A DNA stretch of 60,996 nt from a virus, in IMG/VR virus record IMGVR_UViG_2788500553_000001, positions 1 through 60,996 of that record, one strand, 5' to 3'. This document shows, in pieces, positions 1-33,736 of this stretch (position 1 is its first letter; every line of letters starts with the position of its first letter). Under the pieces are notes generated by a model that searched no databases, was not told the origin of the DNA, and worked only from the letters and a program-made list of their open reading frames with translations. The position numbers and the translations under genes are program-made.

Positions 1-543
1 TCATCGGCTTTCCTGATCGCCGCCGCGCTCGTCCTCGTCTTGGGGGTCCAGTGACTTCGTCAGTTCCACGCGGTGGAGGCCGTAGCCGCGGTCCGCGTAG
101 AACGCACGGGCGCGGTCGTTGTCTGCCAGCGCCTCTAGCGCCACGCGCTCGGCGCCCGCCTCGACGAGCGCGCGCTCGGCCGCGTCGAGCAGCGCCGCAC
201 CGACCCCCTCGCCGCGCCGGTCCGGTCGCACGAAGAGGTTGCTGACGGTTCCGCGGACGGCGTCGCGGTCGTAGTCACCGCGTTCGAGCGAGAAGCCGAC
301 GAACCCGACGGGGTCCGGATCGCCGGCGTCCGCTTCGGCCGCGGCTTCAGGGTCGCGAGCGACCAGCAGGTCGCCGGTAACCACCGACTGCGCGACCCAC
401 TCGCGGACGGTCGCGCGGTTCGCCTCGCCGCGGAGCGTGGCGCCGTACTCGCGCTGCCCCGCGGCGAGCGTCACCCACATGTCGGTGACCGGGTCGACGT
501 CGTCGGCGGTCGCCGGCTCGATCCGGGCGTCCGTCTCGGCCAT
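1..543 (-). CDS. GNAT family N-acetyltransferase (host)
   Basis: Acetyl-CoA motif A: LFVRPDRRGEGVGAALL; C-terminal NDRARAFYADRGY; acidic haloarchaeal composition. Confidence 0.9.
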   Translation of the reverse strand: MAETDARIEPATADDVDPVTDMWVTLAAGQREYGATLRGEANRATVREWVAQSVVTGDLLVARDPEAAAEADAGDPDPVGFVGFSLERGDYDRDAVRGTVSNLFVRPDRRGEGVGAALLDAAERALVEAGAERVALEALADNDRARAFYADRGYGLHRVELTKSLDPQDEDERGGDQESR

Positions 544-12787: not shown

Positions 12788-12913
12788 ATCGTTCGCACAC
12801 CTCCGTTATCGCCCGCTTAGCGACCCGACCGGGGATTTTTGGTGGGTTCGGGCCGGTCTACCACGTCACGGTGGGGCGACGCAGACCGGTAAAGGAGGAG
12901 CGGTGTGCCGGCG

Positions 12914-14038: not shown

Positions 14039-14164
14039 AGTTCACACACCTCGAACCCGGTGACTTCCGCTCGGGCCGCCGCTCGGCCGTCATCGCTCGC
14101 TGATGGGCGGTCAGGCATGGCCGCGAGGCCATGATAACGACGAGACGGCGCGTGCTTGCCGTCT

Positions 14165-14293
14165 CTACGCGTCGAGGGCGGCGGTGCTGGCTGTCACCCT
14201 CGCGCCGCATAACGACGCTGTCTCGGCAAGTTCGGCGTCCGTCGTGTCGGACACCGCGCCGCTCGGGTATTCGATGCGGTATATCGTCGTCAT
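14165..14293 (-). CDS. 42-aa microprotein (not in ORF track)
   Basis: MTTIYRIEYPSGAVSDTTDAELAETASLCGARVTASTAALDA; ATG overlaps the upstream TGA. Confidence 0.55.
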   Translation of the reverse strand: MTTIYRIEYPSGAVSDTTDAELAETASLCGARVTASTAALDA

Positions 14294-14544
14294 ATTTGAA
14301 CCACCACCTTCCAAACGTCGGTGTACCGCGGATCGTTGACCTCCTCCGCGGCGATGAGCGCCCCGAGCGCGATGTTTGTATCGAACTCACGCTCCGCGCG
14401 ACGCTTCGCGACGTTTTTCGCGACCTGCTCGGGCGACGACGACACACCCTCCGCGAAGCCGTACTCGCTGAGGTTGATTTCGTACGTCACGGTCGCCTGA
14501 AGGTTATCGCGTTTCACGTCAATCTCGTCGGGGATATCGGCCAT
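14290..14544 (-). CDS. Hypothetical protein
   Basis: Start reassigned to MADIPD. Confidence 0.6.
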   Translation of the reverse strand: MADIPDEIDVKRDNLQATVTYEINLSEYGFAEGVSSSPEQVAKNVAKRRAEREFDTNIALGALIAAEEVNDPRYTDVWKVVVQI

Positions 14545-14810
14545 TACGCCATCACCTCGACGAACTCGCCGTTCTCGTCGACCTCGGCGATCGCGGCGTC
14601 GCTCGCGGGCTGTTCGACTCCGACCGGGGTAACGCGTTCTTCGCACATATCGCAAAACACTCCGTTTCGCCGTCGTACGGCTCATCAGGCCGGCTTCAGC
14701 CGGCGACGGATTGATGCGCCCCGTCGAGTGTTACTCGCGGGGGACTCACTTGCGCGACGCCCCCTCGTTTCCATGTCCGCTACTCGCGCGTCTGGCCTAA
14801 CCGCGCTTTG

Positions 14811-15355
14811 AAAAACGCCGCCGGAAGCTCACGCTGTACCGTCGACGGGATGACTACCTCGGTGTACGCTGTACGCCGTGTCGGCGCACGCGGTCGACTG
14901 GGCGGGGAACTCGGGGTCGCTGGCTCTCGCCTCGCCGTATCCCACGTCTAAGCCCCGTTTCCACGGACTGCCACTCAGGGCACGTCGGCGTCGGTCTGTG
15001 TCGTGACTTTACTCACACGGGCTCCGACGCTTTATCGCTCGACGCTGTCCGGCTCGCCAGCACCGCCGCTCACCGGACGAGATCGAACGCCCGCTGATCC
15101 ACACCCGAGGTTCCAGAGGCTCTCTGCGGCCGGCACCGCGCCGCGTCGAACGTGGGGATCCTCGCCCGACCGGGGTAGCGCCTTGCGCCCGCTTCCACTC
15201 GGGCACTCCGAACCGGCGCTGGTTCATGGACCTCCTCTCGGAACGTGCTTGACCGGGCAACCCCGGTCACGACCTGACCCCGCTTGGCGAGGGGCGTCGG
15301 CCGCTGTCGTCGCGTGGGTTCGCACACCGCAACTGCCTTCGCCTTCTTCTCACCC
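14811..15355 (-). ncRNA. Candidate large structured ncRNA (~545 nt)
   Basis: No acidic ORF; TATA-like TTTTATTAT upstream, TTTTT at the end, at least nine local hairpins. Confidence 0.5.
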
Positions 15356-15373
15356 GTACATACGTTCCGGGGG

Positions 15374-15382
15374 ATAATAAAA
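15374..15382 (-). promoter_or_regulatory. TATA box for leftward transcript (candidate ncRNA)
   Basis: TTTTATTAT on the minus strand within very GC-rich context. Confidence 0.55.
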
Positions 15383-15502
15383 CTTTACCTGTTCAAGCGA
15401 GGTTTGCCTATAAACATCCCCTCGACCTCCGGGGACTCCGGGGCTAACTCACCCCCAAACACCCCGTCAGACGAGGCGCAGATACTCGCGCGCGCTCCGC
15501 GC

Positions 15503-17128
15503 CTACCACGAGGTCGAGGAGGCCGAGTCCGAAGCCGGCACGATCGTCCGCCCGCCGCTGCTATTCCACAGGACACGATACCGCCGATTCGCCGCGTCGA
15601 GGCCGTCGTCGAACGCCGTCGCCACGTATTCGAGCGCGGTATGGAGGTCGCGGAGTGTCTTTTCGTCGAAGAACGAGTCGAGAAGGCGCCAAAATTCCGT
15701 GCCGACCGGCTCTCCGCCGATCGTCACGTTCGACTCATCCTCGCGGAGCATCGCGTCGAACGTCCGATTCATGTCGAGGATCTGCTGGAGGTTGTGAAGG
15801 ACGATCGGCGTCGAGTCGAGCGAGGTCTCGCCTGAGGCAATCGCGTCGAAGCCGCGATCGCGTTGCGTCCGTGTACACACCGGACATCGGCACGGGAAGA
15901 AGTCGAGTTCCGTCGGCGACAGGTATTCGTTCTCCTCTTCATCGCGCGTCGACAGGACCGTGAACCGGCGCCGCGCCGTGCGCGGCAACTCGAACCGCCG
16001 TGCCTTCGCGCCGTACGTGTGCGCGGTCGAGTCGGACGTAACCATCTGGTCGGTCCGACTGGCGTAGTACATCAGGAGCGGGAGCTGTTGCTCGCCCGAC
16101 ACCTGAAGGACGTGAATATACTCAGCGTCGTCGAGGTACTCGGCCGCGAACGCGAGATGATACGCCACCTGCCCGATCGACGTGGCCGGCTTCGGCGACA
16201 GCGTCCACGCACGGGGCTTTTGGAGGCCGGCGTCGGCCGCCCCATCGACCGCCCGCTTCCACCACTCGCGGGCGAGCTTGTGCGAGTCGTCGGCGCGGGG
16301 ATGCGGCCGGGCTTGGATCACCGGCGCGAACAGGTACCCCGCCGCGCCGTCGGCGCCGTCGTCGCGCAACTCCTGAAGTCGATGGCCCATCCGTTCGACC
16401 ATCTCGCGGTGCCGGACGGCGTGGTCGTAGAACTGCGACTCCCACTCACGGGTGAACTCGTCTTGCGCGGCGAAGTTTTGCGTCCCTTCGGTGTTACCGT
16501 ACGGCGGGAAGTCGATGGTCGAGCCGGCGTCGGCGTTCCGCACCTGCCACTCAACGAGCCGCTCCGGGTTGATCCGGTACTCGTTGAAGTCGTGGTCGGC
16601 CGGGTCATCGACCATTTCCGCGTCGTCGATCGTCACGAGTTGGAACCCGCCCGAGTCGGCGAAGATGAACTGCTCACCGCGCTCGAACCGAAACACGTCG
16701 CGGAAATCGTGTTCACTCAGGTCGACGCCGCCGATCCCCCCGGCCGGATTGACGAGCGCGAACGGATGCGCCGGCATCACGGAGTCGGACTCCCACCAAC
16801 TCATCTCATGGCCGTCGAGCAGGTAGTCGTGGTCGGCCTCGGTCGACGGCAGCCCGGTATCGATGTCGCGCCGGCTCCCGTATCGCTGCGCCGCGATCCG
16901 GGCGATCGAAAAGCCGAACACAGGCATGAACGTGTACCGTCCGCGCCGGAGGACCGACTCGACCGACCCCGCGCTCGTCACGGCGTCATCTGTTGACGAG
17001 ACACCGTCGTCTTCGGTGCCGTCCGCGCTCCATGTAGTATCGGACGCGGGGCTCCGGTTGACCATCTCGCCGCCGTCTGACCGCGTCTCTGGCGTCGGCC
17101 CCCACGCCGAGGGATCAGGCCCCGACAT
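15503..17128 (-). CDS. dpdA: DpdA / TGT-fold 7-deazaguanine transglycosylase, probably DNA-targeting
   Basis: TGT motifs FADSGGFQ, IDFPP, PVIQ, TSDS and Zn site CRCPVC...HN; no PUA domain; next to queF and yhhQ. Confidence 0.82.
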   Translation of the reverse strand: MSGPDPSAWGPTPETRSDGGEMVNRSPASDTTWSADGTEDDGVSSTDDAVTSAGSVESVLRRGRYTFMPVFGFSIARIAAQRYGSRRDIDTGLPSTEADHDYLLDGHEMSWWESDSVMPAHPFALVNPAGGIGGVDLSEHDFRDVFRFERGEQFIFADSGGFQLVTIDDAEMVDDPADHDFNEYRINPERLVEWQVRNADAGSTIDFPPYGNTEGTQNFAAQDEFTREWESQFYDHAVRHREMVERMGHRLQELRDDGADGAAGYLFAPVIQARPHPRADDSHKLAREWWKRAVDGAADAGLQKPRAWTLSPKPATSIGQVAYHLAFAAEYLDDAEYIHVLQVSGEQQLPLLMYYASRTDQMVTSDSTAHTYGAKARRFELPRTARRRFTVLSTRDEEENEYLSPTELDFFPCRCPVCTRTQRDRGFDAIASGETSLDSTPIVLHNLQQILDMNRTFDAMLREDESNVTIGGEPVGTEFWRLLDSFFDEKTLRDLHTALEYVATAFDDGLDAANRRYRVLWNSSGGRTIVPASDSASSTSW

Positions 17129-32169: not shown

Positions 32170-32311
32170 ACTTGACCTGCCGCCCGACCGGGGTAGGTAG
32201 GCGACACCCGACCATACACGGTGGGTAGGGAAATAACACCCCCTGAACGTCTCGGGCCAGACGTAACACGGGAGGGCAAACCCTCGCCGGCCTTTACACA
32301 TCGACGGACCG

Positions 32312-33358: not shown

Positions 33359-33414
33359 GTTAAACAACTCGACGTTCGTGTGCCAAGCGATAGACATCTG
33401 TCCGATTTTCTCTG

Positions 33415-33499
33415 AAAAAGTTTTATTAGGCCGGCCGGTTAATGGTCGGATGAGACGGTTTCCACCGTCTCGTCAGGCACTCAGCCCGACCGGGGTAAC
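33415..33499 (-). ncRNA. Candidate ~85-nt small RNA convergent with radA
   Basis: Begins at the TTACCCCGGTC motif; hairpins TCGGGC-TGAGT-GCCTGA and GAGACGGT-GGAA-ACCGTCTC; ends in TTTTT. Confidence 0.4.
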
Positions 33500-33656
33500 G
33501 ATTGGGCCTTGGAGGGGAGGTGTGTCTTCCACACTTCGCACCTTCCCCGCCTGTCTTTCTACGGAGTGACTTCAGTAATTCCACCCGCCATCGATGTGGT
33601 GCCACTATTCATAGGTGTTAAGGTGTAATTATCAGATGCCCCACGCGGCCCTTCCC

Positions 33657-33736
33657 TTACCCCGGTCGGGCGACTGCGTGGGCTGCCCAACACGACGGGG
33701 AGAGTGTAGCATAAGTCCCCGGACAGCCCCCACGCC
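33657..33736 (+). promoter_or_regulatory. Motif plus structured 5' leader of the late operon
   Basis: TAATTAT ~30 nt upstream, TTACCCCGGTC, then GCGTGGG/CCCACGC and CGGGGA/TCCCCG helices closing 1 nt before ATG 33737. Confidence 0.5.

What the first reader, a model, noticed from the sequence alone, without database searches (positions are those of the whole stretch)
14811..15355. Candidate ~545-nt structured ncRNA between the DNA-modification and MoxR clusters
Seen: the largest non-coding gap in a densely packed genome, bounded by a TATA-like TTTTATTAT (15374-15382) and a T5 tract (14811-14815) on the minus strand. Hairpins: 15250-15269 (8 bp), 15210-15225, 15187-15204, 15114-15126, 15047-15078, 14969-14982, 14955-14966, and 14874-14886 nested inside a GTCGAC/GTCGAC helix (14841-14898). 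Established: bacterial prophages encode large ncRNAs of this size (ROOL, GOLLD). Caveat: high GC produces chance hairpins.
Basis: partly seen in the sequence, partly recalled or inferred. Interest (0 to 1): 0.75.

Follow-up and report, generated by a model that had tools for sequence, protein, structure and literature searches.

The report
Non-coding leader ending in hammerhead ribozyme
The largest gene-free stretch of this provirus of a salt-loving archaeon is real and probably transcribed, but nothing shows it to be a large folded RNA; the solid new feature is a complete self-cutting hammerhead ribozyme just beyond its end, of a kind already known in such viruses.

Summary
Window 14661-15502 is the largest non-coding stretch of this haloarchaeal tailed provirus. 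It has no codon periodicity, only basic junk ORFs, no Pfam or PHROG hit and no pseudogene trace.

The reading as a ROOL/GOLLD-like structured RNA is not supported. No Rfam family matches inside it. Folding energy is no better than shuffles (z -1.6 and -1.85), and local z-scores match the coding flanks. No relative is closer than about 50% protein identity, so covariation cannot be tested.

- A canonical type III hammerhead ribozyme lies at 14712-14659 (minus strand), 100 nt past the T5 tract and abutting the first start codon of the small-ORF/DUF6744/MoxR/VWA operon. It scores 40.4 bits, E 2.5e-5.
- The promoter-like 12-mer AAAGTTTTATTA is an exact copy of one in the second-largest intergenic region.
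- Both 12-mer copies are followed by an antisense and then a sense copy of the virus's leader motif.

Best reading: a promoter followed by a 540-650 nt untranslated RNA, ended by the T5 tract or cut off by the ribozyme. This scan has already reported hammerheads in haloviruses, and one ribozyme-released leader RNA, on other DNA.

The parts
15375..15386 (-). Promoter-like BRE/TATA 12-mer AAAGTTTTATTA. A WW element (TA) lies 13-14 nt downstream, and the predicted start is near 15351.
   Evidence: An exact second copy lies at 33417-33428(+). With up to 2 mismatches 0.19 matches are expected, and 1 of 100 shuffles gives 2. It fits the haloarchaeal BRE cGAAA, TATA TTWT and -10 WW (PMC4983044). It is one of only two AT-rich patches between 14816 and 15502.
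14811..15355 (-).
   Evidence: No codon periodicity. Composition is G 0.378, C 0.303, A 0.182, T 0.138, the same polarity as the sense strands of the flanking genes. Fold z is -1.6. No Rfam hit.
15250..15270 (-). 8-bp hairpin UGACCGGG-GUUG-CCCGGUCA carrying GUGACCGGGGUU, the complement of the leader motif ACCCCGGUC(AC).
   Evidence: Folds at -15.1 kcal/mol. The motif match on the opposite strand is at 15260-15268.
15165..15177 (-). Sense copy of the 13-nt leader motif TACCCCGGTCGGG. It can pair 11 of 12 with the anti-motif 82 nt upstream.
   Evidence: One of four exact 13-mers in the window; the others are at 32183, 33485 and 33658. Inverted repeat I8.
14811..14815 (-). T5 tract: a candidate archaeal U-tract terminator or attenuator. 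As TTTTTCAAA it could also serve as a weak TATA for the downstream unit.
   Evidence: Sequence. It is the only sense-strand T5 in 9771-33358, but 2.5 are expected. U-tract termination in archaea is described in PMC8716108 and PMC7515710.
14659..14712 (-). Type III hammerhead ribozyme. Stem III is 14710-14706 paired with 14665-14661. The cleavage triplet is GUC, with the cut after C14705. Stem I is GCCGGC-UGAA-GCCGGC, the core is CUGAUGA, stem II is GCCGU-ACG-ACGGC, followed by GAAA.
   Evidence: RF00008 at 40.4 bits (gathering score 48.5), E 2.5e-5 for the whole window on both strands against all families. The three-way junction is the minimum-energy fold, z -2.43. A strict descriptor finds only this site in the window and none in 60 shuffled windows.
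14544..14660 (-). First small ORF after the ribozyme: 38 aa from GTG 14660, or 34 aa from ATG 14648. Its TAA stop overlaps the ATG of the next ORF.
   Evidence: Acidic product and coding-like GC phase.
14290..14544 (-). 84-aa ORF, an ORFan. It is followed by a 42-aa ORF (14293-14165) through an ATGA overlap.
   Evidence: No homologue in either protein library. Strong GC3 phase.
15400..15519 (-). Locally stable structure at the 3' end of the DpdA-like gene, including a perfect 10-nt inverted repeat (15420-15429 with 15510-15519) and a second TATA-like TTTATA (15412-15407).
   Evidence: z -2.85. Repeat I9.

Best explanation
The gap is a control and leader region, not a member of any known large-RNA family.

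Proposed mechanism:
1. A promoter whose BRE/TATA core is AAAGTTTTATTA (15386-15375) starts minus-strand transcription near 15351.
2. The transcript is untranslated.
3. Some polymerases stop at the T5 tract (14815-14811), giving an RNA of about 540 nt.
4. The rest read on into a canonical type III hammerhead (14712-14659), which cuts itself between C14705 and G14704.
5. The cut releases a leader of about 647 nt with a cyclic-phosphate end. It leaves the mRNA of the small-ORF/DUF6744/MoxR/VWA operon with a 5'-OH, a compact 44-nt folded cap and a start codon 0-12 nt beyond the ribozyme.

Shown by sequence analysis: the absence of coding signal, the complete ribozyme core and helices, the repeated promoter 12-mer, and the motif and anti-motif copies.

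Inferred: the transcription start, read-through of the T5 tract, self-cleavage in the cell, and any function of the released RNA.
For: Non-coding status.

Hammerhead:
- Full-length RF00008 match at 40.4 bits, E 2.5e-5.
- The three-way junction is the minimum-energy fold.
- It is the only hit of a strict type III descriptor, with 0 hits in 60 shuffled windows.
- Its 3' end abuts GTG 14660 and lies 12 nt before ATG 14648. This mirrors the HF1/HF2 hammerhead, which lies 13 nt before the first ORF of a polycistronic early transcript whose 5' end maps to within 3 nt of the cleavage site (PMC3088659).

Transcription:
- No AT-rich patch lies between 14816 and 15372, or between 14301 and 14806. The ribozyme therefore needs a transcript that begins at the T5/TTTTTCAAA patch or further upstream.
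- The 12-mer is an exact copy of 33417-33428, with matching WW elements, and fits the haloarchaeal promoter consensus.
- Purine skew on the minus strand matches the neighbouring sense strands.

Host: the portal protein is closest to haloarchaeal tailed viruses DL1, CGphi46, BJ1, phiH and phiCh1.
Against: - There are no expression data.
- The hammerhead scores below Rfam's gathering score. It has only short loops (UGAA, ACG), so it lacks the loop-loop contact that speeds natural hammerheads.
- With flanks added, alternative pairings compete with the ribozyme fold.
- TTTTATTAT lies 120 nt after the DpdA-like stop codon and could be that operon's terminator rather than a promoter.
- TTTTTCAAA at the T5 tract could itself be a weak promoter. 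In that case the gap RNA and the ribozyme-bearing mRNA would be separate transcripts.
- No relative carries this region, so nothing shows that it is under selection.
Confidence: 0.5

Rival explanations
1. The gap encodes an independent regulatory RNA of about 540 nt, running from the promoter to the T5 tract and acting in trans. Its GUGACCGGGGUU segment pairs with the ACCCCGGUC motif that sits in the leaders, or directly before the start codons, of a dozen genes of this provirus. The ribozyme-bearing operon would be transcribed separately from the TTTTTCAAA patch.
For: - The motif occurs 13 times against 1.3 expected.
- Eleven of the 13 copies are in the sense orientation of the local genes, 0-17 nt before start codons in most cases.
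- Each of the two antisense copies lies within about 115 nt downstream of one of the two AAAGTTTTATTA copies, in non-coding DNA.
- In six copies the motif lies in the apical part of a hairpin closed by GGGC pairing with upstream GCCC.
- Antisense RNA control is known in the related temperate halovirus phiH (PMC6210493).
Against: - The complementarity is only 9-11 nt.
- In the gap RNA the anti-motif is buried in an 8-bp hairpin.
- The same pattern fits a DNA-binding regulator with sites in both orientations.
- The motif is absent from the relatives, so there is no comparative support.
- There are no expression data.
Confidence: 0.2
2. The gap is functionless spacer DNA left at a junction between two gene modules. 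The ribozyme only processes read-through transcripts from the DpdA operon, and the AT-rich box is that operon's terminator.
For: - Relatives join the DUF6744/MoxR/VWA module and the DpdA module to different neighbours, with intergenic spacers of only 100-135 nt.
- The segment from 14150 to 15502, including the 84-aa ORFan, has no counterpart anywhere.
- Folding is no better than chance.
Against: - The exact promoter 12-mer and the exact 13-nt motif shared with the other control regions are unlikely in junk DNA.
- The other genes of the provirus look intact and tightly packed.
- No trace of a decayed gene was found.
Confidence: 0.2
3. The gap is a replication origin.
For: Two direct ORB-like boxes lie 190 bp apart: TGGAAACGAGGGG at 14773-14761 and TGGAAACGGGGCT at 14963-14951. 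The resemblance to archaeal origin recognition boxes is recalled from my own knowledge, not tested. The virus encodes its own replisome; PolB and RadA were confirmed.
Against: - The box pattern is not enriched in the window: 5 matches against 6.2 expected.
- GC between the boxes is 0.68, with no AT-rich unwinding element.
- The boxes are direct, not inverted.
- No Orc1/Cdc6 gene is adjacent.
- The cumulative GC-skew minimum and the lowest GC lie near 32-34 kb, not here.
Confidence: 0.05

Closest known systems
HHphage, the hammerhead ribozyme of haloviruses HF1/HF2 (Perreault et al. 2011, PMC3088659)
   Same: A hammerhead in a haloarchaeal tailed virus, a few nucleotides (13 there, 0-12 here) before the first ORF of a polycistronic unit. 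There the transcript 5' end maps to within 3 nt of the cleavage site.
   Different: HHphage has a 2-nt insertion in the catalytic core, whereas this core is fully canonical. Other notes of this scan describe the halovirus hammerheads as type II; this one is type III with minimal loops. Here a leader of about 650 nt, not a promoter, lies immediately upstream.
Hammerheads flanking genes or gene blocks in bacterial prophages (Perreault et al. 2011, PMC3088659)
   Same: An intergenic type III hammerhead directly before a start codon at a module boundary. Examples with the same layout were fetched here: L121, L108, L106 and L137.
   Different: Those are bacterial and often come in pairs or arrays. 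Only one ribozyme is detectable in this 61-kb window.
ROOL and GOLLD, large structured RNAs of bacterial prophages
   Same: Similar size range, and a location in a (pro)virus.
   Different: No Rfam match at any threshold. No excess folding stability. No homologues, so no covariation. The host is archaeal.
Antisense RNA of halovirus phiH (Stolt and Zillig 1993, as cited in PMC6210493)
   Same: A temperate haloarchaeal tailed virus whose portal is 40% identical to this one uses a small counter-transcript to control early gene expression.
   Different: That RNA is a cis-encoded counter-transcript. Here any pairing would be in trans through a 9-11 nt motif, and it is untested.

Membership tests
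Hammerhead ribozyme, type III (Rfam RF00008) | Conserved core CUGANGA ... GAAA with a G10.1-C11.1 closing pair | tested here: met
   CUGAUGA at 14688-14682, then the G-C closing pair of stem II, then GAAA at 14668-14665.
Hammerhead ribozyme, type III (Rfam RF00008) | NUH cleavage triplet with U16.1 paired to A15.1 | tested here: met
   GUC at 14707-14705. U14706 pairs with A14665.
Hammerhead ribozyme, type III (Rfam RF00008) | Three helices around the core, with stems I and II capped by loops and stem III open | tested here: met
   Stem I has 6 bp and a UGAA loop, stem II 5 bp and an ACG loop, stem III 5 bp and is open. This is the minimum-energy fold at -23.3 kcal/mol, z -2.43.
Hammerhead ribozyme, type III (Rfam RF00008) | Score at or above Rfam's gathering score (48.5 bits) | tested here: not met
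   40.4 bits. The E-value is still 2.5e-5 for the whole window against all 4227 families. A strict descriptor gave 0 hits in 60 shuffled windows.
Hammerhead ribozyme, type III (Rfam RF00008) | Tertiary contact between loops I and II, or a pseudoknot, as in fast natural hammerheads | tested here: inconclusive
   The loops of 4 and 3 nt leave little room for a contact. Consensus hammerheads cleave in molar monovalent salt (PMC3088659), conditions like a haloarchaeal cytoplasm.
Hammerhead ribozyme, type III (Rfam RF00008) | Self-cleavage activity | not testable with these tools
   Needs in-vitro transcription or in-vivo end mapping.
ROOL / GOLLD and other large structured RNA families in Rfam | Match to the family covariance model | tested here: not met
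   No match at gathering scores in the window. No relevant match at E<=10 in 14400-15800.
Structured non-coding RNA (generic) | Folding energy clearly below dinucleotide shuffles | tested here: not met
   z -1.60 (545 nt), z -1.85 (647 nt, only 20 shuffles), and local z from -1.9 to +1.1.
Structured non-coding RNA (generic) | Covariation in homologues | not testable with these tools
   No homologous region was found in phages, viral contigs, genome contigs, metagenome contigs or the loci of relatives.
Haloarchaeal basal promoter | BRE (cGAAA-like), TATA (TTWT) and WW near -10 at the right spacing | tested here: met
   GTAAAG-TTTTATTA, with TA 13-14 nt downstream. The same layout occurs at the 33417 copy. 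The consensus is from PMC4983044. Activity was not tested.

The most novel reading that the evidence does not exclude
The gap makes a virus-encoded regulatory RNA of 540-650 nt. Its hairpin-caged GUGACCGGGGUU segment pairs in trans with the ACCCCGGUC hairpin-loop motif found before a dozen early genes, including the 7-deazaguanine DNA-modification and replication genes. A second such RNA would come from the twin promoter at 33417. Together they would form an antisense-RNA regulon in an archaeal provirus, insulated from the next operon by a terminator and a hammerhead.
Probability: 0.15. Interest if true: 0.7.

Novelty: new member of a known kind. Interest (0 to 1): 0.35.

Why it matters
The hammerhead adds a canonical-core, minimal-loop type III example to the few known in haloarchaeal viruses. 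Its position, at the end of a long untranslated leader and directly before an operon, allows a simple test of what ribozyme cleavage does for an archaeal mRNA: 5'-OH end, stability, and translation of a near-leaderless message.

The leader itself is an orphan. If the twin promoters and the paired motif and anti-motif copies prove to be an RNA-level circuit, it would be a rare case of trans-acting RNA control of a viral regulon in archaea.

As it stands, the claim of a large structured RNA has no positive evidence.

Tried and rejected
**Known RNA families**
- Rfam at gathering scores and at E<=1 over the whole window, and at E<=10 over 14400-15800, gave only the hammerhead.
- No tRNA or tmRNA.

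**Coding or pseudogene**
- No Pfam or PHROG hit for the gap ORFs.
- tblastn with the genes that flank the DpdA and DUF6744 modules in relatives found nothing in the gap.
- No codon periodicity.

**Search for homologues of the gap**
- blastn and tblastn against 50,697 phage records found nothing.
- The search for related loci found nothing with single proteins in viral contigs, or with an alignment in viral and genome contigs.
- Relatives were reachable only through the protein library. They are 41-54% identical and have different neighbours and no comparable gap.
- The 84-aa ORF next to the ribozyme is an ORFan in both protein libraries.

**Hammerhead pattern scans**
- The stem-II pattern hit more than 120 phage hammerheads, none of them with gap homology.
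- The stem-I pattern hit only chance matches in bacterial coding DNA.
- The metagenome scan gave one unrelated low-GC phage hammerhead.

**Other readings tested**
- Repeats, transposon ends, CRISPR-like array: only short two-copy repeats.
- Origin: the ORB-like pattern is not enriched.
- A copy of the relatives' three-hairpin leader element in the gap: none, even with filters off.
- A pattern scan for that element in viral contigs gave 9 chance matches.
- T5 depletion as evidence for a terminator: not significant.

**Tools unavailable**
- The genome search could not reach the relatives' records.

Full report
**What the window is.** The window is an IMG/VR provirus record of 60,996 bp with 63% GC. 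It encodes a terminase, a portal, a family-B DNA polymerase and an archaeal-type RadA. The portal is closest to haloarchaeal tailed viruses: Halorubrum tailed virus DL1 49%, CGphi46 47%, BJ1 43%, phiH 40% and phiCh1 38%. Genes from about 9.7 to 32.3 kb lie on the minus strand.

**Genes around the finding.** Upstream of the finding, in the direction of transcription, lies a 7-deazaguanine cluster: QueF, a YhhQ-type Vut_1 transporter, DUF6378, and a 541-aa protein at 15503-17128. The 541-aa protein has no Pfam hit of its own. I read it as TGT/DpdA-like from its CxCxxC motif and from a homologue that carries PF01702. Downstream lie three small ORFs (38, 84 and 42 aa), linked by overlapping stop and start codons. 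After them come DUF6744, a MoxR-type AAA_5 ATPase and a VWA protein.

**The observation.** It is correct.
- GC at the three codon phases differs by 0.3-0.5 in the flanking genes. It differs by only 0.03-0.17 between about 14620 and 15460.
- A crude gene call leaves 14686-15502 as the largest uncovered stretch of the window. The next gaps are 150-250 nt.
- All six reading frames of the gap give basic, Arg-rich products, unlike the acidic proteins of this virus.
- The gap ORFs have no Pfam or PHROG hit.
- Genes that neighbour the two modules in relatives leave no tblastn trace in the gap.
- TTTTATTAT (15382-15374) and TTTTT (14815-14811) are on the minus strand as stated.
- Every listed hairpin forms.

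**Is it more structured than chance? No.**
- The 545-nt stretch folds at -259.5 kcal/mol against -248.9 +/- 6.6 for shuffles, z -1.60. The plus strand gives z +1.16.
- The full putative leader (15351-14705) gives z -1.85 with 20 shuffles.
- Sliding 120-nt windows inside the candidate give z from -1.9 to +1.1, the same range as the coding flanks.
- The only windows near z -2.9 lie outside the candidate. One is at 14640-14759 (the ribozyme). The other is at 15400-15519 (the 3' end of the DpdA-like gene).
- No Rfam family, ROOL and GOLLD included, matches at any threshold.

- Rfam's permissive scan finds a full-length match to Hammerhead_3 at 14712-14659 on the minus strand. It scores 40.4 bits against a gathering score of 48.5. 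The E-value is 2.5e-5 for the whole window, both strands, against all families.
- Every defining element is present. These are a 5-bp stem III, the GUC cleavage triplet, a 6-bp stem I with a UGAA loop, CUGAUGA, a 5-bp stem II with an ACG loop, and GAAA.
- The three-way junction is the minimum-energy fold.
- A strict type III descriptor that I wrote finds this site alone in the window. It finds nothing in 60 dinucleotide-shuffled windows.
- The predicted cut is between C14705 and G14704.
- The ribozyme's last bases overlap GTG 14660 and lie 12 nt before ATG 14648 of the first small ORF.
- The precedent is direct. Perreault et al. found a hammerhead in haloviruses HF1 and HF2, 13 nt before the first ORF of a polycistronic early transcript. 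That transcript's mapped 5' end falls within 3 nt of the cleavage site. They also found one consensus-core hammerhead in saltern viral metagenomes (PMC3088659).
- Type III hammerheads with short stem-I hairpins directly before start codons turned up among the phage loci fetched here: L121, L108, L106 and L137.

**Signals shared with another control region.**
- The TATA-like box is part of a 12-mer, AAAGTTTTATTA (15386-15375, minus strand). The same 12-mer recurs exactly once more, at 33417-33428 on the plus strand. That copy lies in the 378-nt intergenic region after radA. With up to two mismatches 0.19 matches are expected, and 1 of 100 shuffles reaches two.
- Both copies have an A-rich BRE-like 5' part, a TTWT-type TATA and a WW dinucleotide 13-14 nt downstream. 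This is the layout described for haloarchaeal promoters (PMC4983044).
- The virus also has a 9-nt motif, ACCCCGGTC, present 13 times against 1.3 expected. Eleven copies are in the sense orientation of the local genes, mostly 0-17 nt before start codons.
- The two antisense copies each lie downstream of one of the two 12-mers. Each is followed by a sense copy. In the gap the pair is 15271-15259 and 15177-15165; in the other region it is 33485-33497 and 33658-33670.
- The gap's sense copy is one of four exact 13-mers, TACCCCGGTCGGG.
- This shared grammar argues that the gap is a control region rather than junk. It does not say whether the motif works as RNA or as a protein-binding site on DNA.

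**Putting it together.**
- A hammerhead needs a transcript that covers its stem III 5' strand (14710 upward).
- By the AT-rich-patch criterion there is no promoter-like sequence between 14806 and 14301 or between 15372 and 14816.
- The start must therefore lie at the T5/TTTTTCAAA patch (14815-14807), at the 12-mer promoter, or in the upstream operon.
- I favour the 12-mer promoter, with a start near 15351. The T5 tract would then act as a partial terminator. U-tract length grades termination efficiency in archaea, and terminators inside operons are common (PMC8716108, PMC10450193).
- On this view the gap yields an untranslated RNA of about 540 nt (T5 end) or about 647 nt (ribozyme end). The operon mRNA would start at G14704 with a 5'-OH.
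- The minus strand of the gap is purine-rich, like the neighbouring sense strands. That is consistent with this direction of transcription but weak evidence.

**Limits.**
- There are no expression data.
- The region is unique. The closest relatives, reachable only through the protein library, are 46% (DpdA-like) and 53-54% (DUF6744) identical. They come from Logan, JGI, ENA and NCBI assemblies.
- In those relatives the two modules have other neighbours and spacers of 100-135 nt.
- The 84-aa ORF is an ORFan.
- Pattern scans of viral, genome and metagenome contigs found no relative.
- The look-up of encoding contigs closed before three closer contigs could be fetched.

**Verdict.**
- The reading as a large structured RNA is not supported, and the coding, pseudogene, repeat and origin alternatives found no support either.
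- The best-supported reading is a promoter, a long untranslated leader and a hammerhead boundary.
- The hammerhead is a new member of a known kind.
- The leader RNA is an orphan of unknown function.
- This scan has already reported halovirus hammerheads, and one promoter-to-ribozyme leader RNA in a phage, on other DNA. I did not test those notes.

Noticed in passing
window 14140-14057 (-) and 9395-9317 (-); L005 2922-3016 and 4220-4312; L006 2706-2797 and 4106-4178; L007 2392-2463, 3229-3321 and 4432-4500; L008 2144-2211, 2532-2644, 3537-3610 and 4017-4085: A conserved leader element of 70-110 nt lies 10-25 nt before start codons in this virus group. Its order is GUUAACA/GUUAUCA, hairpin P1, UGCCUG, hairpin P2 (CUGnn...nnCAG), CGAG, a variable third hairpin, then GGAAGUyA. 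Across 13 copies, 98.7% of cells are paired, with 21 double-change cells against 4.9 in shuffles (0 of 500), and the signal collapses when partners are slid. The alignment was fitted to the model. It has no Rfam match and was not found in IMG/VR. It looks like an undescribed structured RNA motif and may deserve its own follow-up.
   Followed up: yes
window, 13 sites: 9367, 14622, 15168, 15260, 18819, 19260, 21247, 23985, 29314, 32186, 33488, 33659, 34320; near-copies at 12824 and 24816: The motif ACCCCGGTC is enriched about 10-fold and is strongly sense-oriented. There are two classes: gTTACCCCGGTCA 0-4 nt before an ATG, and TACCCCGGTCGGGC. In six copies of the second class, GGGC pairs with an upstream GCCC, so the motif lies in the apical part of a hairpin. 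In the 9367 copy that hairpin is P1 of the leader element. The motif is absent from relatives L002-L008, apart from one chance-level hit.
   Followed up: partly
window 33359-33736 (+): This is the second-largest intergenic region, after radA. It carries the twin promoter 12-mer (33417-33428), a 7-bp hairpin (GAGACGG...CCGUCUC), and a perfect 14-nt inverted repeat of the motif (33486-33499 with 33656-33669) that would close a domain of about 155 nt in a rightward transcript. It also has a second TATA-like box at 33624-33634.
   Followed up: partly
window 15353-15267 (-) and 33450-33569 (+): At the start sites predicted from both 12-mer copies there is a start codon followed by AGA (GTGAGA and ATGAGA). 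Each opens a short, very basic ORF: 28 aa starting MRRRRRQ..., and 39 aa starting MRRFPPS.... They are probably not genes, but they are placed as leaderless starts would be.
   Followed up: no
L006 about 97-160 (+); L090 (IMG/VR contig, GC 0.67): A relative carries a type III hammerhead-like element with core CUGACGA...GAAA before a 69-aa gene. Its stem-I and stem-II loops (AGACUCGCGGA and GUGAGGU) are shared with a high-GC IMG/VR contig. Rfam did not report it, even at E<=10 over 400 nt. Its minimum-energy fold keeps stems I and III but extends stem II into the conserved core, and it is no more stable than shuffles (z +0.51). It may be a halovirus hammerhead subgroup with a loop-loop contact.
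   Followed up: partly
window 14773-14761 and 14963-14951 (-): Two direct copies of TGGAAACG(A)GGGG lie 190 bp apart. They resemble archaeal origin recognition boxes (from my own knowledge). The pattern is not enriched in the window.
   Followed up: partly
window 14720-14713 with 14687-14680 (-): With its flanks included, upstream GCGCAUCA can pair with the UGAUGAGC of the ribozyme core. This would compete with the active fold. It could be a timing device or chance.
   Followed up: no
   Followed up: no
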